NCBI RefSeq assembly: GCF_036409475.1
Contig: NZ_JAYRCK010000005.1
Location: 142,335-174,334, forward strand
DNA: 32,000 nucleotides
DNA from: Scandinavium sp. SGZ-S8
Lineage (GTDB): Bacteria; Pseudomonadota; Gammaproteobacteria; Enterobacterales; Enterobacteriaceae
Direction: 5' to 3'
In this document: positions 7,409 through 21,698 of the stretch, piece by piece
How positions within the stretch are numbered: position 1 is the stretch's first letter
Layout: every line of letters begins with the position of its first letter
Program-made: the position numbers and the translations under genes
The notes under the pieces: model-generated
The model's database searches: none
The model's input: the letters and a program-made list of their open reading frames with translations, nothing else
What the model was told of the DNA's origin: nothing

Positions 7409-7767
7409 AATGTGTTCTCCACGTCAGTAGGGCAAAGCAGATAAAGCGATTTCCCCTTCCTCCCTCTTCCCGAATGACGAGATGCCGTAGAAAAAATACG
7501 TTCAATAATCATATCAGCTCTTTAATTTTTACTTCTTATTTATAGATGAATGTAATTAAATGTTATGAATTATTAATTGTTCAGATGGGGTGAAAATATC
7601 CATCATATATGATGTATTTGTTATGCGAACTGGGGAGATCTTTTACAAGGTTGGTTTGATTAATTCTCATCAATTTGATCCAAATCGTAAAATTGTAAAT
7701 GCGATGAGCTTGTTTCTTGTGCGGTGGAGTATCATTTTCTGCGTTTAAAACTCCACGGATATCAATA
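7409..7767 (+). promoter_or_regulatory. AT-rich cas3 upstream region (expected promoter / nucleoid-protein silencing region)
   Basis: Markedly AT-rich from about 7490 to 7715. It contains the perfect 14-bp palindrome CATCATATATGATG at 7601-7614. In E. coli and Salmonella the corresponding regions are H-NS bound. No promoter hexamers were assigned. Confidence 0.35.
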
Positions 7768-10461
7768 ATGATCGGCGATGTACCTGATTACCTTTGTTAC
7801 TGGGGGAAAACCAGTGATTCCTCTTTACAGGAAAGTAGAGACTGGCATTTACTGGCATATCATTGTCTTGATGTCGCTGCTTGTGGATATTTGATTGTTG
7901 AGCGGAATATATATTGCGCAAAAAATTCATTATATGAATGTGGTTTAGGTGATGACGAAATTCCTGTATGGATTGCCTGGCTGTTTGCTACGCATGATAT
8001 CGGAAAATTTGCGCGAGGCTTTCAGCGACTGGTGGAATTCACTGACTCACCTTTAGTGCCTCCGGTCAATGGGGTAAATGCTTTTGCTCGTCACGATTCG
8101 CTGGGAATGTATTTATGGCAAAAATTATACCGTGGCTGGTTGGCGGGAAAGAATAATATTCTTCCTGATATCCCTCCTGAAGAACGCGATGAGTATGAAG
8201 ACGCATTGCATTCCTGGATGTCAGTCAGCACAGGGCACCACGGATTACCTCCCGATAACAGCAATAAAAAAATACCCCTGGCATTTTGTGATGATGATAT
8301 TGCGGCGGCGGAACATTTCATGGAAGACCTGAGTCAGTTATTTCCAATAAAAATACCGGCACAGTGGAAAGATAAAAACGGAAGGAAAAATATCCGTCAG
8401 CAAAGCTGGTTTTTTGCCGGGCTGATGACGTTATGCGACTGGATGGGATCGGATCAAACGCTATTTCCTGTCGTCAGTACGCCAATGCCATTGCCAGAAT
8501 ACTGGCCTCTTGCCTGTGAAAGGGCGCAACGTGCGCTATCAGCTATTCCTTCCCCCTCGGAACCCAATCCCTATTCAGGTTATCAGACACTGTTTCCATT
8601 CATTCGTCAGCTAACGCCTCTTCAGCAACGTGCGACGACCCTGGATATCTCCTCGCCGGGTCCTCAGTTGATTATCCTGGAAGATGTCACCGGTGCGGGG
8701 AAAACGGAAGCCGCGTTAATCCTCGCGCATCGGCTGTTATCTGCGGGAAAAGGACAGGGGCTGTATGTCGGTTTGCCGGGGATGGCGACCGCCAATGCGA
8801 TGTACCAGCGGCTGCAGAAAGCGTATCGACAATTGTTCAGTGAGGAATCACAGCCCTCGTTGATTCTGGCACACAGCGGCCGGGAAATGTCAGAGGCCTT
8901 TCGTCAATCCATCTGGCAACCGTCAGCGACTGATGCGCAACCCTATTCCGCCAGCGAGGCCACTGCCTCCGGTCAGTGCCACGCCTGGTATGCCGATTCG
9001 CGCAAAAAAGCGTTACTCGCTGAAATGGGCGTGGGCACACTCGATCAGCTCCTGATGGCGGTCATGCCTTTTCGTCATCAGTCACTGCGTTTACTGGGCA
9101 TGCGTGACAAAGTGCTGCTGCTGGACGAAGTCCATGCCTACGATAGCTACATGGTCAGGCTGCTGGAAGGATTGCTCCATTTTCATGCGGCTCAGGGCGG
9201 TAGCGCAATTATCCTCAGTGCAACGTTGCCGGCTTCATTACGGGAAAAACTGCTTGCTGCTTTTAACGATGGCGCAGGTTTTCCCCCTCAAACGCCCGAT
9301 GAAGCCGATTACCCCTGGTTAAGTCATCTCAGTGCCGCTGGGCTATATGAGCAACCACTTCCTACCAGACCCGAGGTTCAGCGCACGGTAGCGGTGAATG
9401 CCCTTGTCGAGCCTTCTGACGCCATGGCGTTAATTCATCAGGCCGTCGCTGCGGGTCAGTGTATTTGCTGGATCCGTAACACGGTAGATGAAGCGCTGGA
9501 CATCTATCAGCAGCTGCTCGCGGCCGGGACGCTTCCGGCAGCCGATATTTTGTTGTTTCACAGCCGTTTTGCCTTTGCCGATCGTCTGGCAATAGAAGAG
9601 AAAACCCTCAACTGGTTTGGTAAAGATGCTCCTCCTGTGTCGCGCAAAGGCAAAGTGCTGATCGCCACTCAGGTGGTGGAGCAATCGCTTGATGTAGATT
9701 TCGACTGGATGATTTCCGATCTCGCGCCCATCGATCTGCTTATCCAGCGTGCCGGGCGGTTGCAACGTCATATTCGCGATGCTGAAGGCAACCCCAAATC
9801 TCAGCTTCCCGACGAACGTCAGCCGCCGGTATTGCATCTTTATGGTCCGCAATGGCAGGAAGATGCTCACCCTGAAGAGTATGCCAAAGCGCTGAAGGGA
9901 ACAGGCTATATCTACCCCGATCACGGCTGTTTGTGGCGCACTCAGGCGCTGCTGCGTCAGGTGGGAGAAATCCGTATGCCGGAAGGGGCAAGAACGCTGG
10001 TCGACGGCGTCTATGAGCAGAAAATTGCTGCGCCAGCAGGATTACAAACAGTTTCCGATCTGGCGTTTGGTCAGGATTTATCCCGCCGTTCGGTGGCCGC
10101 ACAAAATTTGCTCAGCCGAAATAAGGGCTATGACCGCGAGGCCAGCGATTTCTTGTGGAGTGAAGATCGGGAGTTTTCAACGCGTCTGGGCGAACCCAGT
10201 CTCGATGTCTATCTGGCGTGGCCAGATGGTGACGGAATATTGCAGCCCATCGTTCGCGAAGGCGATTTTCGCTGGGAGAAAAGCCGGATTTCGTTACGGG
10301 AATCCTGGTGGCGCAAACATCAGGCACAGCTTGAACAGCCGGAAGAAGAGCAACTGGCGCTGTTTCGTAAACAGCAGCATCGCCCTACGGCGCAGGTGGT
10401 GTTGGTGTCAGAACAAGGGGAAGCGGCGTATTACAGCAAGCGCTTTGGGTTGACTGGGTGA
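7768..10461 (+). CDS. cas3: Type I-E CRISPR-associated helicase/nuclease Cas3 (HD + SF2 helicase)
   Basis: The track ORF 7717..10461 starts at a TTG. I prefer the ATG at 7768 (MIGDVPDYLCYWGKTS...), which matches typical Cas3 N-termini (..YWGK..). HD motifs are LAYHCLDVAA, HDIGKF and TGHHG. Helicase motifs are TGAGKTEAA (Walker A), LLDEVHAYD (DEAH), ILSATLP and QRAGRLQRH. Confidence 0.93.
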   Translation: MIGDVPDYLCYWGKTSDSSLQESRDWHLLAYHCLDVAACGYLIVERNIYCAKNSLYECGLGDDEIPVWIAWLFATHDIGKFARGFQRLVEFTDSPLVPPVNGVNAFARHDSLGMYLWQKLYRGWLAGKNNILPDIPPEERDEYEDALHSWMSVSTGHHGLPPDNSNKKIPLAFCDDDIAAAEHFMEDLSQLFPIKIPAQWKDKNGRKNIRQQSWFFAGLMTLCDWMGSDQTLFPVVSTPMPLPEYWPLACERAQRALSAIPSPSEPNPYSGYQTLFPFIRQLTPLQQRATTLDISSPGPQLIILEDVTGAGKTEAALILAHRLLSAGKGQGLYVGLPGMATANAMYQRLQKAYRQLFSEESQPSLILAHSGREMSEAFRQSIWQPSATDAQPYSASEATASGQCHAWYADSRKKALLAEMGVGTLDQLLMAVMPFRHQSLRLLGMRDKVLLLDEVHAYDSYMVRLLEGLLHFHAAQGGSAIILSATLPASLREKLLAAFNDGAGFPPQTPDEADYPWLSHLSAAGLYEQPLPTRPEVQRTVAVNALVEPSDAMALIHQAVAAGQCICWIRNTVDEALDIYQQLLAAGTLPAADILLFHSRFAFADRLAIEEKTLNWFGKDAPPVSRKGKVLIATQVVEQSLDVDFDWMISDLAPIDLLIQRAGRLQRHIRDAEGNPKSQLPDERQPPVLHLYGPQWQEDAHPEEYAKALKGTGYIYPDHGCLWRTQALLRQVGEIRMPEGARTLVDGVYEQKIAAPAGLQTVSDLAFGQDLSRRSVAAQNLLSRNKGYDREASDFLWSEDREFSTRLGEPSLDVYLAWPDGDGILQPIVREGDFRWEKSRISLRESWWRKHQAQLEQPEEEQLALFRKQQHRPTAQVVLVSEQGEAAYYSKRFGLTG

Positions 10462-10530
10462 TTATCCCCGCTGACGCGGGGAACTGAAAAGCACTTTCCT
10501 ACGGTTCATCCCTATGATCATAAGGAACAT
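10458..10530 (-). ncRNA. Mini-CRISPR / crRNA-like RNA gene: psiR1 (10530-10502), 15-nt pseudo-spacer (10501-10487), psiR2 (10486-10458)
   Basis: The minus strand reads ATGTTCCTTATGATCATAGGGATGAACCG - TAGGAAAGTGCTTTT - CAGTTCCCCGCGTCAGCGGGGATAATCAC. psiR2 matches the array repeat (GTCA-loop variant) at 24/29, with an intact hairpin and cleavage-site context. psiR1 matches at 17/29. It keeps both termini (TGTTCC... and ...GGGATgAACCG, a 7/8 5'-handle). Its altered interior still forms a 6-bp stem (CCTTAT/ATAGGG) plus a GATC tetraloop at exactly the canonical stem positions. Confidence 0.6.
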
Positions 10531-10534
10531 GAAA

Positions 10535-10563
10535 ATTGTAGCAGAATTCTTGATAAAGAATAA
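10535..10563 (-). promoter_or_regulatory. Candidate sigma70 promoter for the mini-CRISPR (extended -10)
   Basis: The minus strand reads TGcTACAAT (10543-10535), an extended -10. A weak -35 TTATTC (10563-10558) lies at 17-nt spacing. The predicted start falls within the first bases of psiR1, around 10530-10528. Confidence 0.4.
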
Positions 10564-10581
10564 TGAACTTAATTTTTTTCT

Positions 10582-10599
10582 AAAAGCACTTTCCTACTT
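10582..10599 (+). promoter_or_regulatory. Predicted Cascade binding site: 15-nt match to the pseudo-spacer plus AAG PAM
   Basis: Plus strand AAAAGCACTTTCCTA (10582-10596) is identical to 10487-10501, so it is complementary to the predicted psi-crRNA. The adjacent CTT (10597-10599) equals 5'-AAG-3' on the non-target strand, immediately 5' of the protospacer. That is the optimal type I-E PAM. At the mini-array locus itself the same position is the repeat-derived CCG. Confidence 0.5.
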
Positions 10600-10759
10600 A
10601 ATTTGATTATTGTGTTTCATTAGTGGCTGTTGCATAGTTGACCAAGGAAGGGCCGATTTATCAGTAAAGGAGCCCCGGAAGAGGAGATTCCGTACTGAAT
10701 CTGTATAAGTAACTGCGATCTAAAACGTCCAGGTTACCAGCTACTGAAAGGTATCTTTT

Positions 10760-10840
10760 ATGACGATTTCTTTTGTGCTTAATCAGCCAGAAATGATCAT
10801 GTTATTTGCATTTCTTCTGTCTGGCTTAAAGCGTCTATAA
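10760..10840 (+). CDS. Hypothetical 26-aa hydrophobic peptide (MTISFVLNQPEMIMLFAFLLSGLKRL)
   Basis: ATG at 10760 is preceded by GAAAGG 9-14 nt upstream, and TAA is at 10838-10840. The product is a hydrophobic core with a basic C-terminal KR. It is too short for composition-based support, and no homolog is known to me. Confidence 0.2.
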   Translation: MTISFVLNQPEMIMLFAFLLSGLKRL

Positions 10841-10845
10841 CGTTT

Positions 10846-10867
10846 GGCTGGCCCAGATGGGCCAGCC
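10846..10867 (+). other. Perfect 10+10 inverted repeat (GGCTGGCCCA-ga-TGGGCCAGCC) just upstream of the cse1 RBS
   Basis: Read directly from the sequence. It lies 5 nt after the small ORF stop and 4 nt before the AGGAG Shine-Dalgarno (10872-10876) of cse1. No U-tract follows. Confidence 0.6.
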
Positions 10868-10884
10868 CTACAGGAGTGAATTGA

Positions 10885-12444
10885 ATGGATTTGATCACGG
10901 AAAGATGGCTGCCCGTTACGCTCACATCGGGTGAGCAAATCAAAATCTCTCTTTCTGAACTACTGGCTGACAACATTGTTGATGCTGCCTATCCCCGTGC
11001 CGATTTTCAGGGCGCAGCCTGGCAGATGCTTATCGGCATCATGCAATGCACGGTCGCACCGGAAGACAGGGGAGAGTGGAAGAGTGTATGGAAGAAGGGG
11101 ATAGACGAATCGCAGTGGAAAAAGGCGCTGGGCGTTATTTCCTCTGCGCTGCAGTTTGGCGAACAGAAACCCTCGTTTTTGCAGAGTTTCGATGCACTGG
11201 ACTGTGAGGCTGGTCCTGTCAGCGGGCTGCTGATTGACGCACCAGGCGGGAACGCCCTCAAGCTGAATAAAGATCATTTTGTTAAGCGTGGCAATACGGA
11301 CAGGATCTGCCCTCATTGCGCCGTCATGGCGCTGTTTACCGTTCAGACTAACTCACCCGCAGGCGGTGCGGGATTTCGGGTCGGTATGCGCGGCGGTGGG
11401 CCGTTGACTACGCTGGTTGTCCCGCAGGATGAAGCCTCGGTTCCGCTGTGGAAGAAGCTGTGGCTTAACGTGTTAGTGCAGGAGACGGCCCTCACAACTG
11501 CACAGCTACCGCTGATTTTCCCATGGCTTGCGGCGACCAGAACCAGCGAAAAACCGGGCAACAGTGTAACGCCGGACAACGCCCATCCTCTTCAGGCTTA
11601 TTGGGGCATGCCACGTCGCATTGAACTGGATTTTTCGTCAACCGAGCCCGGGCGTTGCTCGCTCTGCGGCGAGACACACGACAATCTGCTGATACAAATG
11701 CGCGGCAAAAACTATGGCGTTCAGTATGACAGTTGGCGGCATCCGTTTTCACCCTATCGGGCGGCGCTGAAAGATCCGTCCGCGCCCTGGCTGGCGCTAA
11801 AAGGGCAACCTGGCGGGCTAAGTTATAAAGACTGGATGGGCCTGCTGTGGGACAGCGAAGATAACTATAACAAAACGCAGCCTGCAAAAGTGGTCAGGGC
11901 CGCGAGCAGAGTCAGCGACACGCACCTGTGGTGTTTTGCCTATGACATGGATAATGCCAAGGCCCGCTGCTGGTATCAGCATCGTATCCCCATGATTAAC
12001 ACCTCCGTCCCTGAACTTTTCAATGGCGTGATGACGAGTGTGATTTCCACGGCATCTGATGCTCTCTTTGTGCTGAAAAAAGCGCTGAAAAGCGCCATGT
12101 TTGATGCGCCTTCAGAGGCAAAAGTGGATTTCAGCATGCGGGAGATTGCTTTCTGGCAGGAAACTGAACCGGCTTTTCGTCGGTTAGTGGCGGCACTGAC
12201 AGCCGATCCTCATTGTGCTGAGCAAAAGACCCGCAAGGCGCTTCGCCTGTGGGACAGCGAGCTGCATCATTATGTGATTACCGCATTCGACCGTCAGATC
12301 CTCACGAATGCGGATTGCCCCGACAAAATTCTCATGCGCCAGCTCGACGCCCGTCGCGTGCTGGAGAGTGATTACAGCAAACTCAAGGCGCGCAAGGAAT
12401 TACTCATGAGCGCAGAGGAAGATAAGGAAACCCGCCATGATTAA
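10885..12444 (+). CDS. cse1: Type I-E Cascade large subunit Cse1/Cas8e (CasA)
   Basis: 519-aa ORF with AGGAG 8 nt upstream. The N-terminus MDLITERWLPV... and the motif GGAGFRVGMRGGGPLTTLV parallel E. coli CasA (NWIPV...; GGGFKSGLRGGTPVTTFV). It has the CxxC...CxxC-like pair CPHC/CSLCG. It is the first gene of the Cascade operon. Confidence 0.9.
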   Translation: MDLITERWLPVTLTSGEQIKISLSELLADNIVDAAYPRADFQGAAWQMLIGIMQCTVAPEDRGEWKSVWKKGIDESQWKKALGVISSALQFGEQKPSFLQSFDALDCEAGPVSGLLIDAPGGNALKLNKDHFVKRGNTDRICPHCAVMALFTVQTNSPAGGAGFRVGMRGGGPLTTLVVPQDEASVPLWKKLWLNVLVQETALTTAQLPLIFPWLAATRTSEKPGNSVTPDNAHPLQAYWGMPRRIELDFSSTEPGRCSLCGETHDNLLIQMRGKNYGVQYDSWRHPFSPYRAALKDPSAPWLALKGQPGGLSYKDWMGLLWDSEDNYNKTQPAKVVRAASRVSDTHLWCFAYDMDNAKARCWYQHRIPMINTSVPELFNGVMTSVISTASDALFVLKKALKSAMFDAPSEAKVDFSMREIAFWQETEPAFRRLVAALTADPHCAEQKTRKALRLWDSELHHYVITAFDRQILTNADCPDKILMRQLDARRVLESDYSKLKARKELLMSAEEDKETRHD

Positions 12445-15553: not shown

Positions 15554-16757
<1,204 letters not shown>

Positions 16758-16850: not shown

Positions 16851-19800
16851 GTGTTCCCCGCGCCAGCGGGGATAAACCGCGAGTTATTAGAGGCTTGGTG
16901 GTTGCTGTACGGTGTTCCCCGCGCCAGCGGGGATAAACCGAAACTGACCTCCTACGTGACTGCGGGCAAGCTGTGTTCCCCGCGCCAGCGGGGATAAACC
17001 GGATGTTGATCCGCACGATGAATATCTGTGCTGGTGTTCCCCGCGTGAGCGGGGATAAACCGCGTGAGCAGGAAATCCGCCGGCAGTTCGCAGCGTGTTC
17101 CCCGCGTGAGCGGGGATAAACCGGCGCACGCCGACTTTGAGGCGCTCTATCAGGCGTGTTCCCCGCGTGAGCGGGGATAAACCGGCACAGGCGCTGATTA
17201 ACGCGCTGCAGGGTCAGTGTTCCCCGCGTCAGCGGGGATAAACCGGCCGCATTCAAACAGGCTGGGCAGGAGGGGGAGTGTTCCCCGCGTCAGCGGGGAT
17301 AAACCGAGGCGCAACAATCAGCAGAATTTACGTACATAGTGTTCCCCGCGTCAGCGGGGATAAACCGAAAGTGGCACCAATCCCGGGTCTGTTTGAACAG
17401 TGTTCCCCGCGTCAGCGGGGATAAACCGCGTTTTGGTCTATTACGTTTGTGCTGCCGCGCGTGTTCCCCGCGTCAGCGGGGATAAACCGCCTAATTCAAC
17501 GGCCCTTGCGGCGTTCCCCGGGTGTTCCCCGCGTCAGCGGGGATAAACCGACGCATCTGACGCGGACGTCTGCCAAACAGGAGTGTTCCCCGCGTCAGCG
17601 GGGATAAACCGCGATCACGAGGTCTTCATATGCAGGCTGAGCGGTGTTCCCCGCGTGAGCGGGGATAAACCGTCTACTTAACTTCATCTATGAGCAGTCG
17701 AACAGTGTTCCCCGCGTGAGCGGGGATAAACCGCAGAGGATTAATACGCACCAAGCAAGCCACCAGTGTTCCCCGCGTGAGCGGGGATAAACCGAGGCGC
17801 CACAATCTCAGGTGACGGAGTCGCCGGTGTTCCCCGCGTGAGCGGGGATAAACCGCATGGCGATGCAGCAGTAACAACGGACGGTAAGTGTTCCCCGCGT
17901 GAGCGGGGATAAACCGCCTAGTTTTCCGTACTTTACCAGCGTGGTATTGTGTTCCCCGCGTGAGCGGGGATAAACCGAACATTCAAGGATCTATGACCTG
18001 TCACCTGGGGTGTTCCCCGCGTGAGCGGGGATAAACCGCCTCCAGATACGCCGAACGCCGCCAAATTTCCGTGTTCCCCGCGTGAGCGGGGATAAACCGG
18101 GTGGATTCTACGCCACTAACTTAAAACGATTGTGTTCCCCGCGTGAGCGGGGATAAACCGAAAAAACAGAGTATTCATGGTTTCTCCATAGCGTGTTCCC
18201 CGCGTGAGCGGGGATAAACCGATGGCCTTCGCCGCGTTCTCCTCGTGAGCAATGTGTTCCCCGCGTGAGCGGGGATAAACCGATATTTTTTGACAAGTCA
18301 AGCGGAAAGAATCTGTGTTCCCCGCGTGAGCGGGGATAAACCGCATTACGGCGGAAACTACTCCGGACCGGGCGCGTGTTCCCCGCGTGAGCGGGGATAA
18401 ACCGCTGGTGGCGTTTGATAACAGGCTGCTGATGCTGTGTTCCCCGCGTGAGCGGGGATAAACCGGCCGTGGTCCAGTGGCCGCACAATATGAAACTGTG
18501 TTCCCCGCGTGAGCGGGGATAAACCGCGAGTCCGGCTTTACATCGCACCAATCGCACGGTGTTCCCCGCGTGAGCGGGGATAAACCGCAGAAATGCCAAT
18601 GCAACGCCTGAAATGAATTGTGTTCCCCGCGTGAGCGGGGATAAACCGGGGCGAGCGAAATAATGCCAGTAGAAACAGCAGTGTTCCCCGCGTGAGCGGG
18701 GATAAACCGCGCATTGCTGATCTGGAGAAAGATGCTCAGGGGTGTTCCCCGCGTGAGCGGGGATAAACCGGGGCGAGCGAAATAATGCCAGTAGAAACAG
18801 CAGTGTTCCCCGCGTGAGCGGGGATAAACCGCTATTTGCTGGACCGAGACAATTAACGAAGCAGTGTTCCCCGCGTGAGCGGGGATAAACCGCTGGCAGA
18901 ACGCCTGCACGCCATCAAAGAACAGTGTTCCCCGCGTGAGCGGGGATAAACCGTCTTATAACAGTTTTATGTTATATGCCCCTGTGTGTTCCCCGCGTGA
19001 GCGGGGATAAACCGCAGCTTGACAGGTTGGGCGAAGAGAGGGGGGCGTGTTCCCCGCGTGAGCGGGGATAAACCGCCTAGAGCAGCGAATAACGTACAGT
19101 GAGCAGGGTGTTCCCCGCGTGAGCGGGGATAAACCGTGATCGATATAGCCAGGCACAGAATACGTTGGGTGTTCCCCGCGTGAGCGGGGATAAACCGTAG
19201 ATTAAATTTAGCTAGCTGTTTTAGGCGCTGTGTTCCCCGCGTGAGCGGGGATAAACCGATTACATTCGCCCACTGGAGAGGATCCCCGGCTGTGTTCCCC
19301 GCGTGAGCGGGGATAAACCGGGTTCAGACGGGAACAGATTGCTGCTACGGAAGTGTTCCCCGCGTGAGCGGGGATAAACCGCAGTAATAGATGACACCCT
19401 GGTAGTTTTCGAAGTGTTCCCCGCGTGAGCGGGGATAAACCGCACAGACGGAAACAATACCCGGGCAATGATAGTGTTCCCCGCGTCAGCGGGGATAAAC
19501 CGCGCAACGTCAATTTGCGCATCATCAAGGGAATGTGTTCCCCGCGTCAGCGGGGATAAACCGGTGGCGGGCGGCGTAACGATTTACGGTGGCCAGTGTT
19601 CCCCGCGTCAGCGGGGATAAACCGGTTATCGACATTACCGCCAAGCGCGAAGGCTTGTGTTCCCCGCGTCAGCGGGGATAAACCGCCCATCACCGGATCC
19701 CAAACGACGACGCGCTGGTGTTCCCCGCGTGAGCGGGGATAAACCGGCCCGAACATCCAGGAGCGGCAACGGGCAATAGTGTTCCCCGCGTGAGCGGGGA

Positions 19801-21698
19801 TAAACCGGGCATCAGTATTAGTAATTGACATACCGAGCTGTGTTCCCCGCGTGAGCGGGGATAAACCGCGCATATCAAGAGGCGCAAGTTGCTAAAGCTA
19901 GTGTTCCCCGCGTGAGCGGGGATAAACCGCCAGCATTGATAACAGCGTTAGAAAAGCGGCAGTGTTCCCCGCGTGAGCGGGGATAAACCGTGAATCATGA
20001 CAGTGGGGGGTTCCACAAAAGAGTGTTCCCCGCGTGAGCGGGGATAAACCGAATACAAAAAATCGAGGTGAGGAGGGGGGATAGTGTTCCCCGCGTGAGC
20101 GGGGATAAACCGTGAGCGTTAAATTATCCGCATACGTCTGGGATGTGTTCCCCGCGTGAGCGGGGATAAACCGCTGTTACGTGGAGCGGTACGGTCTGGA
20201 TTTCTGTGTTCCCCGCGTGAGCGGGGATAAACCGCACGGCACGGTCAAGGACTTCGTGAAGTTCCGGTGTTCCCCGCGTGAGCGGGGATAAACCGCGATT
20301 ACCAATCAGTGGTTAGTGGTGATAATGGTGTTCCCCGCGTGAGCGGGGATAAACCGCAAATTGTCGAGCTGCTCAACCAGTTATTCGCGTGTTCCCCGCG
20401 TGAGCGGGGATAAACCTGGTTTTCGTCATAATGCTCTCCGGTTATCTGCGTGTTCCCCGCGTGAGCGGGGATAAACCGCCAGATAGCCATCGCTGAAAAA
20501 TCCCGCCGCAGTGTTCCCCGCGTGAGCGGGGATAAACCGCCGCCGTAAAAGCTGTTGCAAACACCGCGCAGGTGTTCCCCGCGTGAGCGGGGATAAACCG
20601 CGACATCGGTGAAAAAATTAGGCTGATTAGGGGTGTTCCCCGCGTGAGCGGGGATAAACCGGGATTGCGATCAGCAGCACCAGCCGGGCAACGGTGTTCC
20701 CCGCGTGAGCGGGGATAAACCGGGGATGATATGCGATTACCGGACAGCGTTCAGGTGTTCCCCGCGTGAGCGGGGATAAACCGCTGGCAGAACGCCTGCA
20801 CGCCATCAAAGAACAGTGTTCCCCGCGTGAGCGGGGATAAACCGGCGCTGAATGAAGCTGTAGAAAACTATCAATCGTGTTCCCCGCGTGAGCGGGGATA
20901 AACCGGGGGCAGCGAAATAATGCCAGTAGAAACAGCAGTGTTCCCCGCGTGAGCGGGGATAAACCGTAAAAACACAATCATCAACAACAATCACCGCAGT
21001 GTTCCCCGCGTGAGCGGGGATAAACCGCATCCATAGCAGATGTATCAAGCGGGTAATTAGTGTTCCCCGCGTGAGCGGGGATAAACCGACAGAAAAACTC
21101 AAGTTCATAGGTACACATCTGTGTTCCCCGCGTGAGCGGGGATAAACCGCAGGTACTGCAAAACACATTCCCAACAGCGACGTGTTCCCCGCGTGAGCGG
21201 GGATAAACCGGTTACCTGTCCAGTGCCGTTCGTTGGGAGAAAGTGTTCCCCGCGTGAGCGGGGATAAACCGCATGCAACTGCATGATGTACGGTTCAGTT
21301 AGCGTGTTCCCCGCGTGAGCGGGGATAAACCGAGAGTCAGAAGGTGATTTACCTCCGCCAGGGGGTGTTCCCCGCGTCAGCGGGGATAAACCGTTAGAAT
21401 GAGAGCGCACGGCCACACCGCAAACGTGTTCCCCGCGCCAGCGGGGATAAACCGCCCATCACCGGATCCCAAACGACGACGCGCTGGTGTTCCCCGCGCC
21501 AGCGGGGATAAACCGAATACTGGCGTTACGGTACTGCGCTTTAATCTGTGTTCCCCGCGCCAGCGGGGATAAACCGGCGACGGTGTTGAGTTGGCTCTTG
21601 GTACCCCTGTGTTCCCCGCGCCAGCGGGGATAAACCGCGTGGACATTGGGTATCGTTCAAGGCTCTCTGGTGTTCCCCGCGTTAGCGGGGATAAACAG
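16851..21698 (+). CRISPR. Type I-E CRISPR array, 80 repeats / 79 spacers
   Basis: The 29-nt repeat is GTGTTCCCCGCG[C/T][C/G]AGCGGGGATAAACCG. I checked every unit against the 61-nt period. 77 spacers are 32 nt, one is 33 nt (S40, 19259-19291) and one is 31 nt (S43, 19443-19473). Tetraloop variants occur in blocks: R1-3 GCCA, R4-6 GTGA, R7-13 GTCA, R14-43 GTGA, R44-47 GTCA, R48-74 GTGA, R75 GTCA, R76-79 GCCA. The terminal R80 (21670-21698) is degenerate (GTTA loop, ...AAACAG end). R59 ends in T (20417). Confidence 0.99.

What the first reader, a model, noticed from the sequence alone, without database searches (positions are those of the whole stretch)
10582..10599. Perfect PAM-flanked target of the pseudo-spacer inside the cas3-cse1 intergenic region (candidate Cascade autoregulation site)
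- **Match.** The 15-nt pseudo-spacer sequence recurs exactly at 10582-10596, 95 bp away. A 16-nt exact repeat, AAAAGCACTTTCCTAC, occurs at 10487-10502 and 10582-10597. A chance 16-mer repeat within a 423-bp spacer is very unlikely.
- **PAM.** At the distal copy the flanking bases are CTT on the target strand, which is AAG, the optimal I-E PAM, on the non-target strand. At the mini-array the same position is the repeat-derived CCG (self). The shared 16th base is simply the G common to AAG and CCG.
- **Pairing.** Complementarity is PAM-proximal (seed plus 15 nt) and stops there. That is the pattern expected for stable Cascade binding without R-loop completion or Cas3 cleavage.
- **Strand.** The crRNA would pair with the plus strand, the non-template strand for cse1-operon transcription. 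That is the orientation reported to give efficient Cascade roadblocks.
- **Location and model.** The site lies 286 nt upstream of the cse1 ATG, in the region where the Cascade-operon promoter should be. I infer a negative feedback loop in which Cascade represses its own operon, or a downstream toxin-like gene, via this RNA.
Basis: partly seen in the sequence, partly recalled or inferred. Interest (0 to 1): 0.88.

Follow-up and report, generated by a model that had tools for sequence, protein, structure and literature searches.

The report
Cascade self-regulating guide RNA and target
The repeated 16-mer is real and is the docking site of a degenerate two-repeat "mini-CRISPR" RNA that most likely steers the cell's own Cascade complex onto the promoter of the Cascade operon, a circuit already shown experimentally in Salmonella and Citrobacter, so this is a correct call but a new member of a known kind.

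Summary
AAAAGCACTTTCCTAC occurs exactly twice (10487-10502, 10582-10597). The distal copy is followed by CTT, which is an AAG PAM on the minus strand.

The proximal copy is the 15-nt pseudo-spacer of a reverse-oriented mini-array (10458-10530) in a complete type I-E locus. That mini-array has its own minus-strand promoter.

Comparative evidence:
- In 32 related loci, the pseudo-spacer seed and a PAM-flanked target co-vary: 22/32 cognate pairs score 10/10, against 1/992 non-cognate pairs. Mismatches often fall at the flipped position 6.
- The target sits 9-10 bp upstream of a sigma-70-like -35 box in half of the loci, including this one.

This is the CreR/CreA class. It has been validated for type I-E in Salmonella enterica (same 15-nt match, same AAG PAM) and in Citrobacter rodentium (CreTA, with a translated small-ORF toxin in the same slot).

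Points specific to this window:
- The pseudo-spacer is trimmed to exactly the 15 nt that pair.
- A conserved 26-codon hydrophobic ORF (10760-10840) lies between the regulated promoter and cse1. It is a candidate CreT-like peptide of an undescribed family.
- The whole ~385-bp module is absent from a locus whose Cse1 is 98% identical.

No expression, processing or toxicity data exist for this locus.

The parts
10458..10486 (-). PsiR2, the 3' repeat-like element of the mini-array. Minus strand: CAGTTCCCCGCGTCAGCGGGGATAATCAC. It overlaps the cas3 stop codon (10459-10461). It keeps the Cas6e hairpin and the GUUCC part, but its last 8 nt are degenerate.
   Evidence: the only reverse-oriented repeat-like hit in the window; 7-bp stem with a 4-nt loop; the same pattern in 34 loci.
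10487..10501 (-). PsiS, the 15-nt pseudo-spacer. Minus strand: TAGGAAAGTGCTTTT.
   Evidence: It is the shortest of 32 related mini-arrays; the others are 19-21, 26 or 32-33 nt.
10502..10530 (-). PsiR1, the 5' repeat-like element. Minus strand: ATGTTCCTTATGATCATAGGGATGAACCG. Its 8-nt 5' handle is 7/8 identical to the canonical one (AUGAACCG vs AUAAACCG). Its hairpin is rebuilt with 3 compensated pairs plus 1 wobble.
   Evidence: (I1). 32/34 loci keep a hairpin of at least 5 bp here, with different stem sequences.
10535..10543 (-). Predicted extended -10 element (TGcTACAAT) of the mini-array promoter. It ends 4 nt before PsiR1.
   Evidence: the best minus-strand -10 ends 2-10 nt before PsiR1 in 21/34 loci. 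This is a prediction only; the generic scan did not list it.
10582..10596 (+). Target (protospacer). The + strand is the strand that would pair with the guide, and all 15 nt are complementary to PsiS.
10597..10599 (-). PAM: AAG on the minus (non-target) strand, CTT on the + strand.
   Evidence: The same PAM is found in 28 related loci; C. rodentium uses ATG.
10610..10638 (+). Predicted sigma-70 promoter of the sORF-cse1 transcript: -35 TTGTGT (10610-10615), 17-nt spacer with TG at 10631-10632, -10 CATAGT (10633-10638). The transcription start would be near 10645.
   Evidence: the -35 box starts 9-11 nt after the PAM in 15/28 loci, and the mean score profile peaks only at offsets 9-10. This is a prediction, and the consensus match in this window is weak.
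10760..10840 (+). Conserved 26-codon ORF, MTISFVLNQPEMIMLFAFLLSGLKRL, with a Shine-Dalgarno-like AAAGG upstream. It is a candidate CreT-like peptide or first cistron of the regulated transcript.
   Evidence: orthologues in 8 loci; codon-position differences 199/108/267 and pN/pS 0.46; hydrophobic; no Pfam or PADLOC match.
10846..10867 (+). Perfect 10-bp hairpin between the sORF stop and the cse1 ribosome-binding site. No T-run follows, so it is not an intrinsic terminator.
   Evidence: (I3). It is also present in loci without the module.
10885..12444 (+). cse1/casA, the first Cascade gene downstream of the regulated promoter.
   Evidence: TIGR02547, E = 6e-145.

Best explanation
Window 10458-10530 is a degenerate two-repeat mini-CRISPR of the CreA/CreR type.

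Proposed mechanism (all steps inferred unless marked as shown):
1. It is transcribed from the minus strand, antisense to the end of cas3, from its own extended -10 promoter.
2. Cas6e cuts at the two hairpins. This gives an RNA of about 44 nt: an 8-nt 5' handle, a 15-nt guide and a 21-nt 3' hairpin handle.
3. The RNA assembles into a shortened Cascade.
4. That complex recognises the AAG PAM at 10597-10599 and pairs all 15 guide bases with the + strand at 10582-10596.
5. A 15-bp R-loop is too short to license Cas3 cleavage, so the complex stays bound. Its PAM side lies 10 bp from the -35 box of the promoter that drives the 26-codon ORF and, by read-through, cse1-cse2-cas7-cas5-cas6e.
6. Bound there, over the UP-element zone, it lowers transcription.

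The consequences would be negative feedback on Cascade level and de-repression when Cascade is titrated by crRNAs, blocked by anti-CRISPRs or lost. If the small ORF is toxic, as the ORF in the same position in C. rodentium is, the circuit would also be an addiction or abortive-infection safeguard (CreTA).

Shown here: the sequence anatomy, the co-variation, the positional conservation of the promoter, and the coding-type conservation of the ORF. Inferred from homologous experimental systems: processing, binding and repression. Untested: toxicity.
For: - **Repeat and PAM.** The repeat is exact and non-random, and the PAM is correct.
- **Orientation and anatomy.** Both match the main array's repeat. 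PsiR1 keeps the 5' handle and a compensated 7-bp/4-nt hairpin. PsiR2 keeps the hairpin and 3' handle.
- **Co-variation.** Each of 32 related loci has its own pseudo-spacer. 22 of them have a 10/10 PAM-proximal match plus CTT in their own intergenic region, against 1 of 992 non-cognate pairings. Mismatches cluster at position 6, the base Cascade flips out.
- **Pairing length.** Uninterrupted pairing most often ends at position 15 (11/29 loci) whatever the pseudo-spacer length. The window's 15 nt is therefore the functional core.
- **Main promoter.** The -35 box lies 9-11 nt after the PAM in 15/28 loci, including the window.
- **Mini-array promoter.** It lies just upstream of PsiR1 in 21/34 loci.
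- **S. enterica precedent.** The published CreR locus, read here as L087, has the same design: 15 consecutive nt, AAG, -35 at offset 10. It repressed PcasA about 8.6-fold in E. coli (bioRxiv 10.1101/2023.03.10.532045).
- **C. rodentium precedent.** The type I-E CreTA locus, read here as L088, has the same layout, with a translated 96-bp toxin ORF 52 nt before casA.
- **Short guides.** E. coli crRNAs with 14-nt spacers are processed by Cas6e and give no interference (PMC5159557).
- **Small-ORF linkage.** Intact small ORFs in this slot always co-occur with a mini-array and a matching target: family 1 in 6/6 loci, family 2 in 8/10 (L034 and L035 have the mini-array, but no target reached the score threshold), family 3 in 3/3.
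- **Module behaviour.** The module is present or absent as one block between loci with 98% identical Cse1.
Against: - There are no transcript, processing, binding or expression data for this organism.
- The predicted + strand promoter is a weak consensus match in this window (TTGTGT/CATAGT, score 6.3), and the generic scan did not report it.
- A 15-nt guide corresponds to a '-18' Cascade. In S. thermophilus such complexes showed assembly defects (PMC6859484). In E. coli, -18 guides still triggered primed adaptation from a fully matching target (PMC5159557), which would be dangerous on the chromosome.
- For the toxin half: the peptide is unrelated to the C. rodentium toxin, has no family match, and sits on the same predicted transcript as cse1.
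- Copies of the ORF exist next to decayed mini-arrays (L003, L085).
- No conserved RNA structure was found in the 5' UTR.
Confidence: 0.8

Rival explanations
1. Pure CreR. The guide RNA only auto-represses the Cascade operon. The 26-codon ORF is a harmless leader or first cistron, for example one that tunes cse1 translation through the hairpin that follows it, and is not a toxin.
For: - The validated S. enterica CreR locus has no ORF in this position.
- The ORF and cse1 share one predicted transcript with no terminator between them.
- The hairpin and ribosome-binding-site block downstream is also present in loci without the ORF.
- The peptide is unrelated to the proven C. rodentium toxin.
- ORF copies survive beside decayed mini-arrays in L003 and L085.
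Against: - At least four unrelated small-ORF families occupy the same slot in different lineages, and one of them is a proven toxin.
- Intact copies were never seen without a mini-array plus target.
- The surviving copies in L003 and L085 have lost the start codon or the Shine-Dalgarno sequence.
- The peptide is hydrophobic, like small membrane toxins, and is under purifying selection.
Confidence: 0.4
2. A decaying remnant. The mini-array is a dead fragment of an old CRISPR array, the second 16-mer copy is a by-product of a local duplication, and neither has a function.
For: - The pseudo-spacer is abnormally short.
- PsiR1 differs from the repeat at 9 of 29 positions.
- A near-identical cas operon (98% identical Cse1) works without the module.
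Against: - The changes in PsiR1 are compensatory and preserve a 7-bp/4-nt hairpin and the 5' handle.
- The copy carries the optimal PAM, while the array-side copy carries the repeat.
- The same architecture, with different co-varying sequences, recurs in 29 or more loci from many genera.
- A conserved promoter sits in front of PsiR1.
Confidence: 0.04
3. Chance. An A/T-rich intergenic region happens to contain the same 16-mer twice.
For: The region is A/T-rich and only 423 bp long. The same 18-mer (target plus PAM) occurs 40 times by chance in the very large metagenome collection.
Against: - The expectation in the whole window is 0.02, even with 2 mismatches allowed.
- One copy is exactly the spacer of a mini-array and the other carries the PAM.
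- Co-variation is seen across loci.
- None of the 40 metagenome hits has a repeat-like element or a second copy nearby.
Confidence: 0.01
4. Antisense regulator of cas3. The minus-strand transcript that starts at 10528-10530 runs into the 3' end of cas3 and acts mainly as an antisense RNA, like the anti-Pcas transcript described in E. coli (from my own knowledge). The repeated 16-mer would be incidental.
For: PsiR2 overlaps the cas3 stop codon, and transcription from the predicted promoter would continue antisense to cas3.
Against: - In close relatives cas3 is divergent, so the mini-array is not antisense to it, yet the mini-array, target and PAM are retained.
- This reading does not explain the co-variation or the PAM.
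Confidence: 0.05

Closest known systems
CreR of the Salmonella enterica type I-E system (Cas-regulating RNA; bioRxiv 10.1101/2023.03.10.532045, later used in 10.1101/2024.10.29.618823)
   Same: - Same Cse1 lineage (58-68% identity).
- Two-repeat mini-array between cas3 and cse1.
- Exactly 15 consecutive PAM-proximal nucleotides match a site flanked by AAG.
- The -35 box starts 10 nt after the PAM (locus L087).
- PsiR1 keeps the 5' handle and PsiR2 keeps the 3' handle.
   Different: - In Salmonella the pseudo-spacer is 22 nt with 15 pairing; here it is 15 nt and pairs throughout.
- The Salmonella target is about 140 bp from casA with no ORF between. Here it is 286 nt away, with a ~115-nt leader and a conserved 26-codon ORF between.
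- In that Salmonella locus cas3 is divergent. Here it is co-directional, and PsiR2 overlaps its stop codon.
CreTA of the Citrobacter rodentium type I-E system (PMC12055562)
   Same: - Same order of parts in the cas3-casA intergenic region: CreA on the opposite strand, a target over the UP element next to a canonical PAM, a promoter, a ~115-120-nt leader, a small translated ORF, then ~45-50 nt to casA (locus L088).
- cas3 is co-directional.
   Different: - The C. rodentium toxin (32 aa, basic, MQEESTRFKCLFLRMMVRLGKKLSISFQLSLH) is unrelated to the window's 26-aa hydrophobic peptide.
- Its PAM is ATG, not AAG.
- Its pseudo-spacer is 33 nt with about 14 nt of uninterrupted pairing (position 6 does not match).
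- Cse1 belongs to a different type I-E sub-lineage (the L023 group, 41% identical to the window).
- Toxicity is proven there and untested here.
Type I-E mini-arrays between cas3 and cas8e catalogued by Shmakov et al. (PMC10120712)
   Same: That survey found mini-arrays in about 19% of type I-E loci. They are transcribed opposite to cas3, with partial matches to the cas8e promoter region flanked by AAG. The window fits this description.
   Different: The survey is mainly computational and does not mention small ORFs or peptides in this position. It describes the repeat next to the seed as the better conserved one. Here the seed-side repeat (PsiR1) is the more degenerate one overall, apart from its handle.
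CreTA of Haloarcula hispanica type I-B (Li et al. 2021 Science, as cited)
   Same: The logic is the same: a degenerate mini-CRISPR RNA with limited seed pairing makes Cascade a repressor of an adjacent promoter.
   Different: It is an archaeal type I-B system. Its toxin is an RNA that sequesters a rare tRNA, not a conserved peptide. The module lies between cas6 and cas8.
Engineered E. coli and S. thermophilus Cascades with spacers shortened by 18 nt (PMC5159557, PMC6859484)
   Same: The guide length is 14-15 nt. It is processed by Cas6e, assembles with fewer Cas7 subunits and gives no interference.
   Different: Those are laboratory constructs. They showed priming (E. coli) or poor assembly (S. 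thermophilus). A natural regulatory guide of this length has not been described in the papers read here.

Membership tests
CreR/CreA-type crRNA-like regulatory mini-array (type I-E) | Two repeat-like sequences flank a spacer-like sequence, located inside a cas locus and outside the CRISPR array. | tested here: met
   PsiR2 is 10458-10486, PsiS is 10487-10501 and PsiR1 is 10502-10530. They lie between cas3 and cse1, 6.3 kb from the 80-repeat array.
CreR/CreA-type crRNA-like regulatory mini-array (type I-E) | Asymmetric degeneration: PsiR1 keeps the nucleotides that become the 5' handle, and PsiR2 keeps those that become the 3' handle and hairpin. | tested here: met
   The PsiR1 handle is AUGAACCG vs AUAAACCG (7/8), and its hairpin is rebuilt by compensatory changes. 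In PsiR2 the first 21 nt are 18/21 identical with an intact hairpin, while the last 8 nt are degenerate.
CreR/CreA-type crRNA-like regulatory mini-array (type I-E) | PAM-proximal (seed) complementarity to a site that carries a canonical PAM of the subtype. | tested here: met
   15/15 nt match and the PAM is AAG. This is the only such site in the window.
CreR/CreA-type crRNA-like regulatory mini-array (type I-E) | Pairing is too limited for Cas3-dependent cleavage. | tested here: met
   At most 15 bp can form because the pseudo-spacer is 15 nt. E. coli guides of 14 nt gave no interference (PMC5159557). That this particular site is not cleaved was not tested.
CreR/CreA-type crRNA-like regulatory mini-array (type I-E) | The target lies in or next to the promoter of the effector cas genes or of a toxin gene. 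| tested here: inconclusive
   The predicted -35 box is 10 nt after the PAM. This position is conserved in 15/28 loci and matches the two experimental loci. No transcription start site has been mapped, and the promoter match in this window is weak.
CreR/CreA-type crRNA-like regulatory mini-array (type I-E) | Pseudo-spacer and target co-vary between related loci. | tested here: met
   22/32 cognate pairs against 1/992 non-cognate pairs reach the full score.
CreR/CreA-type crRNA-like regulatory mini-array (type I-E) | Cas6e-dependent maturation and Cascade-dependent repression of the target promoter. | not testable with these tools
   This needs small-RNA sequencing and reporter assays. It has been shown only for the S. 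enterica and C. rodentium homologues.
CreTA (Cascade-repressed toxin-antitoxin) | A gene downstream of the repressed promoter whose product is toxic when Cascade or CreA is lost. | not testable with these tools
   The candidate is the 26-codon ORF at 10760-10840. It is conserved as a coding sequence, is hydrophobic, and sits in the same slot as the proven C. rodentium toxin. Toxicity is unknown.
CreTA (Cascade-repressed toxin-antitoxin) | Sequence relationship to a described CreT or CreP toxin. | tested here: not met
   The peptide shows no evident resemblance to the C. rodentium CreT when the two sequences are read side by side (no formal alignment was run). It has no Pfam or PADLOC match. 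It has no run of rare codons as in haloarchaeal CreT (sequence read).
CreTA (Cascade-repressed toxin-antitoxin) | The toxin is never found without its antitoxin (a co-occurrence asymmetry). | tested here: met
   Intact family-1 ORFs occur in 6/6 loci with a mini-array plus target. Mini-arrays without the ORF exist (L007, L087). ORF copies beside decayed mini-arrays lack a start codon or Shine-Dalgarno sequence. The sample is small.

The most novel reading that the evidence does not exclude
The 26-codon ORF at 10760-10840 founds an undescribed family of translated, Cascade-repressed peptide toxins. This would make the window a CreTA addiction or anti-anti-CRISPR module rather than a plain autoregulator.

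More generally, the slot between the CreA-controlled promoter and cse1 in type I-E loci would be a hot spot that has recruited at least four unrelated small peptides:
- the 26-aa family seen here;
- a 36-aa transmembrane-like family in Methylococcales and relatives;
- a 44-aa basic family in Alteromonadales-like genomes;
- the proven C. rodentium toxin.

In addition, the 15-nt pseudo-spacer would be a natural guide for a shortened three-Cas7 Cascade that can only regulate and never cleave.
Probability: 0.35. Interest if true: 0.6.

Novelty: new member of a known kind. Interest (0 to 1): 0.35.

Why it matters
This locus adds a clean natural example to the CreR/CreTA class, in which a CRISPR effector is turned into a transcription factor by a degenerate guide. 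Such circuits set the Cascade level, sense crRNA load and anti-CRISPR attack, and can make the cas locus addictive.

Three features could be useful to specialists:
- **A minimal guide.** It is trimmed to exactly the 15 nt that pair. That length is also where pairing most often ends in relatives with full-length pseudo-spacers. This points to a natural ceiling for safe binding and gives a design rule for cleavage-free type I-E repression.
- **A candidate toxin.** A conserved hydrophobic 26-aa ORF sits in the position where C. rodentium carries a proven toxin. This makes the question 'how diverse are CRISPR-guarded toxins?' directly testable.
- **A natural with/without pair.** The module is present or absent between loci whose Cse1 proteins are 98% identical, which allows a fitness comparison.

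Tried and rejected
- **E. coli genomes.** blastn of the region found no match, so the module is not an E. coli element.
- **Rfam.** A permissive scan of 10380-10950 gave only chance-level hits.
- **Generic promoter/terminator scan.** It found neither promoter proposed here and no terminator. The promoter calls rest on positional conservation instead.
- **5' leader structure.** RNAalifold on the predicted leaders of six loci gave no convincing shared structure (-2 kcal/mol). A conserved sequence block (AACTGnATTCTAAC...GGTCAYCAGCAA) remains unexplained.
- **Small-ORF family searches.** Pfam and PADLOC gave nothing for the three small-ORF families, apart from one sub-threshold transmembrane hit for family 2.
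- **Phage mimics.** Viral contigs contain no copy of the handle plus pseudo-spacer, so there is no evidence of a phage 'Cracr' mimic.
- **Metagenomes.** The 18-mer (PAM plus target) has 40 hits, none with a repeat-like element or second copy nearby, so they are chance matches.
- **Self-priming.** None of the 79 array spacers matches the rest of the window with up to 6 mismatches.
- **Window genome.** Looking up the window's own Cse1 in the contig collection found nothing. The organism is known only as an unclassified Enterobacterales (WP_330982871.1).
- **C. rodentium toxin sequence.** The supplements of PMC12055562 do not give it. It was read from the fetched locus instead.
- **Relationship to the C. 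rodentium toxin.** I considered that the window's ORF might be related to it and rejected this on reading the two peptide sequences side by side; no formal alignment was run.
Full report
**1. The observation**

The window carries a complete type I-E CRISPR-Cas locus at the cysJIH / iap-cysG site:
- cas3 at 7717-10461;
- cse1 at 10885-12444;
- cse2, cas7, cas5, cas6e, cas1 and cas2, ending at 16757;
- an array of 80 repeats and 79 spacers at 16851-21698, whose + strand repeat is GTGTTCCCCGCGTGAGCGGGGATAAACCG.

In the 423-bp cas3-cse1 gap, the 16-mer AAAAGCACTTTCCTAC occurs at 10487-10502 and 10582-10597. It occurs nowhere else, even with two mismatches allowed. The chance expectation is 0.02. 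The distal copy is followed by CTT and the proximal copy by CGG.

**2. Anatomy of the mini-array**

The proximal copy sits inside a two-repeat mini-array that is the reverse complement of the main array. Read on the minus strand it is:

ATGTTCCTTATGATCATAGGGATGAACCG (PsiR1, 10530-10502) / TAGGAAAGTGCTTTT (PsiS, 10501-10487) / CAGTTCCCCGCGTCAGCGGGGATAATCAC (PsiR2, 10486-10458, overlapping the cas3 stop codon).

- **PsiR1** keeps 7 of the 8 nucleotides that would become the crRNA 5' handle. It also keeps a 7-bp stem with a 4-nt loop. Three of those pairs are changed on both sides relative to the canonical repeat, and one has become a wobble pair.
- **PsiR2** keeps the canonical hairpin and the first 21 nt, which form the 3' handle, but not the last 8 nt.
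- **The distal copy**, in the same orientation, reads AAG-TAGGAAAGTGCTTTT. This is a protospacer with the optimal type I-E PAM on the non-target strand, and the + strand is the strand that pairs with the guide.
- **A promoter.** An extended -10 element, TGcTACAAT (reverse complement of 10535-10543), ends 4 nt before PsiR1. In 21 of 34 related loci the best minus-strand -10 ends 2-10 nt before PsiR1. The RNA would therefore start at about the first base of PsiR1.

**3. Related loci**

I fetched 80 loci encoding Cse1 relatives and several more by exact protein look-up. A reverse-oriented repeat hairpin followed by a second, degenerate repeat lies upstream of cse1 in 34 of them.

- **Co-variation.** Each locus has its own pseudo-spacer. 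I scored the PAM-proximal run (positions 1-11 without position 6, with CTT required) of each pseudo-spacer against its own intergenic region. 22 of 32 loci reach 10/10, with a mean of 8.6. Among 992 non-cognate pairings the mean is 1.5 and only one reaches 10.
- **Position 6.** Many cognate pairs mismatch exactly at position 6, the base that Cascade flips out.
- **Hairpins.** 32 of 34 PsiR1 elements keep a hairpin of at least 5 bp directly before GAU(A/G)AACC(G/A), with very different stem sequences.

**4. Where the target sits**

Downstream of the PAM, the best sigma-70-like promoter has its -35 hexamer starting 9-11 nt after the PAM in 15 of 28 loci. The mean score profile has a single sharp peak at offsets 9-10.

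In the window this promoter is TTGTGT (10610-10615), a 17-nt spacer and CATAGT (10633-10638), with TG at 10631-10632. It is a weak match that the generic scan did not list, but it is in the conserved position. With a start near 10645, the target and PAM would cover about -63 to -46. That is the UP-element zone, with the PAM (Cse1) side facing the -35 box.

The likely mechanism is therefore promoter occlusion rather than an elongation roadblock.

**5. What is known**

This is the CreA/CreR class.
- **Type I-E catalogue.** Shmakov et al. catalogued type I-E mini-arrays between cas3 and cas8e, transcribed opposite to cas3, with AAG-flanked partial matches near the cas8e promoter. They occur in about 19% of type I-E loci (PMC10120712).
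- **S. enterica CreR.** Liu et al. showed that an S. enterica type I-E CreR shares 15 consecutive nucleotides with an AAG-flanked site about 140 bp upstream of casA. It repressed PcasA about 8.6-fold in E. coli, and the repression was relieved by excess crRNA or by AcrIE8 (bioRxiv 10.1101/2023.03.10.532045). I recovered that locus (L087). It reads TTAAGACTGTATCTA|CTT, has a 22-nt pseudo-spacer, and has its -35 box at offset 10.
- **C. rodentium CreTA.** A 2025 study showed that the C. rodentium type I-E cas3-casA gap holds a CreTA module. CreA lies on the opposite strand, its target overlaps the UP element next to an ATG PAM, and a 96-bp ORF must be translated to be toxic. Cascade genes, but not cas3, are needed for gut colonisation unless the toxin region is deleted (PMC12055562).
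- **Layout of the C. rodentium locus (L088).** The order is target, -35 at offset 8, a leader of about 120 nt, the ORF MQEESTRFKCLFLRMMVRLGKKLSISFQLSLH, then 52 nt to cse1. The window has the same order and nearly the same spacings: a leader of about 115 nt, a 26-codon ORF, then 44 nt to cse1.

**6. What is particular to this window**

(a) *The pseudo-spacer.* At 15 nt it is the shortest of the set. The others are 32-33 nt, 26 nt, or 19-21 nt (most Enterobacterales and Gilliamella). These lengths differ by roughly 6 nt, the length bound by one Cas7 subunit (established knowledge; PMC5159557, PMC6859484).

Uninterrupted pairing most often ends at position 15 (11 of 29 loci; range 8-19) whatever the pseudo-spacer length. 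The window is the only locus in which pseudo-spacer length equals pairing length.

Laboratory data bear on such short guides:
- E. coli guides shortened by 18 nt are processed by Cas6e and give no interference, but can prime adaptation from a fully matching target.
- S. thermophilus -18 complexes assemble poorly.

Both points are caveats. None of the 79 array spacers matches the rest of the window.

(b) *A conserved small ORF* at 10760-10840, MTISFVLNQPEMIMLFAFLLSGLKRL.
- It has a Shine-Dalgarno-like sequence.
- It has same-length orthologues in Pluralibacter, Mixta, Pseudescherichia, Salmonella and Pantoea loci.
- Differences by codon position are 199/108/267, against a flat 347/355/340 in the upstream control. 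pN/pS is 0.46.
- It is hydrophobic (GRAVY about 1.1).
- It matches no Pfam or PADLOC family.
- Intact copies occur only with a mini-array plus matching target (6/6). Copies beside decayed mini-arrays have lost the start codon (L003) or the ribosome-binding site (L085).

Other lineages carry unrelated small ORFs in the same slot:
- a 36-aa transmembrane-like family in 10 loci, all with mini-arrays (a matching target was scored in 8; in L034 and L035 none reached the threshold);
- a 44-aa basic family in 3 of 3 loci;
- the C. rodentium toxin family.

(c) *Presence or absence of the module.* A locus whose Cse1 is 98% identical (L089) has cas3 in the same orientation but only a 78-nt gap. It lacks the mini-array, the target and the ORF. 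About 385 bp (roughly 10462-10845) therefore behave as one presence/absence cassette. Two Pseudescherichia loci show the same contrast (L005 with the module, L006 without).

**7. Most likely mechanism**

The proposed sequence of events is:
1. The mini-array is transcribed from the minus strand.
2. Cas6e processes it to a guide of about 44 nt.
3. A shortened Cascade assembles on it.
4. The complex binds the AAG-flanked 15-mer without cleavage.
5. It occludes the promoter that drives the small ORF and, with no terminator in between, the Cascade genes.

The result would be negative feedback on Cascade. If the ORF is toxic, it would also be a safeguard that punishes loss or inhibition of Cascade.

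The sequence anatomy, co-variation, positional conservation and coding signature are shown here. Processing, binding and repression are inferred from the two experimental homologues. Toxicity is untested.

My confidence figures:
- about 0.8 that this is a functional CreR/CreA-type regulator of that promoter;
- about 0.35-0.4 that the ORF is a toxin, given that the element is functional.

**8. Rivals**

- Chance is excluded.
- A dead array remnant is very unlikely, given the compensatory hairpin, the PAM asymmetry and the recurrence in other loci.
- A pure antisense role against cas3 does not explain the PAM or the co-variation. It also fails in relatives where cas3 is divergent but the module is kept.
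- The real open alternative is plain CreR with a harmless leader ORF, against CreTA.

**9. Verdict**

This is a new member of a known kind. Interest is moderate to low (0.35). The mechanism class is established, including for type I-E in close relatives. The trimmed 15-nt guide, the candidate peptide family and the cassette polymorphism are worth a specialist's follow-up.

Noticed in passing
window 10760-10840 (+): A conserved 26-codon hydrophobic ORF (MTISFVLNQPEMIMLFAFLLSGLKRL) lies between the regulated promoter and cse1. It shows a coding-type substitution pattern across 7 loci and has no family match. It sits where C. rodentium has its CreT toxin.
   Followed up: yes
L027, L034, L035, L037, L039, L040, L050, L053, L066, L078 (upstream of cse1, e.g. 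L034 2869-2976): A second, unrelated small-ORF family of about 36 aa with a C-terminal transmembrane-like segment (e.g. MGQIKDLIDAINAFAPNPLAVICLALVLAIIVALKM). In most of these loci it starts about 55-77 nt after the PAM of the mini-array target. All ten loci have mini-arrays, but in L034 and L035 no matching target reached the score threshold. The family is not described in the papers read here.
   Followed up: partly
L031 2842-2943, L063 2820-2951, L070 2808-2927: A third small-ORF family of about 44 aa, basic, with the motif ...YGLKAWPI.... It lies between the mini-array target and cse1 in Bowmanella, Rheinheimera and Oceanisphaera loci and has no Pfam or PADLOC match.
   Followed up: partly
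L089 1423-1500 compared with window 10462-10884: A locus with 98% identical Cse1 lacks the whole mini-array/target/sORF module. About 385 bp are replaced by about 40 unrelated bases. The junctions lie right after the cas3 stop codon and at the hairpin before the cse1 ribosome-binding site.
   Followed up: yes
window 10846-10867 (+): A perfect 10-bp hairpin (GGCTGGCCCA..TGGGCCAGCC) lies directly upstream of the cse1 Shine-Dalgarno sequence. It is conserved with compensatory changes in relatives and is also present in loci without the module (L004, L089). No T-run follows it. Its function is unknown.
   Followed up: partly
window ~10697-10745 (+); alignment A2 columns ~98-240: A conserved sequence block in the predicted 5' leader (AACTGnATTCTAAC ... 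GGACGTC ... GGTCAYCAGCAA) about 60 nt upstream of the small ORF. In some loci UCAYCA can pair with the UGGUGA at the ORF start codon. RNAalifold gave no convincing shared structure.
   Followed up: partly
32 related loci: Pseudo-spacer lengths fall into classes of 32-33, 26, 19-21 and 15 nt. The steps are about 6 nt, the length bound by one Cas7 subunit. The 19-21-nt class (two Cas7 subunits fewer) dominates in Enterobacterales and Gilliamella.
   Followed up: partly
L001 ~2480-2600; L086 ~1015-1140: Some relatives have three-repeat mini-arrays. In Pantoea (L086) the two pseudo-spacers share the same 11-nt seed (AACTGTACTAG). In Pluralibacter (L001) the first spacer is 31 nt and has no obvious target.
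   Followed up: no
L082, L083, L085, L086, L087: In the closest Cse1 relatives (Salmonella, Pantoea and metagenomic loci), cas3 is divergent from cse1. In the window, L001, L005 and C. rodentium it is co-directional. The mini-array keeps its orientation relative to cse1 in both arrangements.
   Followed up: partly
window 16851-21698: The array is large, with 80 repeats and 79 spacers (77 of them 32 nt). There are three loop variants of the repeat (GTGAG 59 copies, GTCAG 12, GCCAG 7). PsiR2 carries the GTCAG variant.
   Followed up: partly
window 10514-10521 and 10796-10803: The palindrome ATGATCAT, which contains a GATC Dam site, occurs in the PsiR1 hairpin loop region and again inside the small ORF. 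This is probably chance.
   Followed up: no
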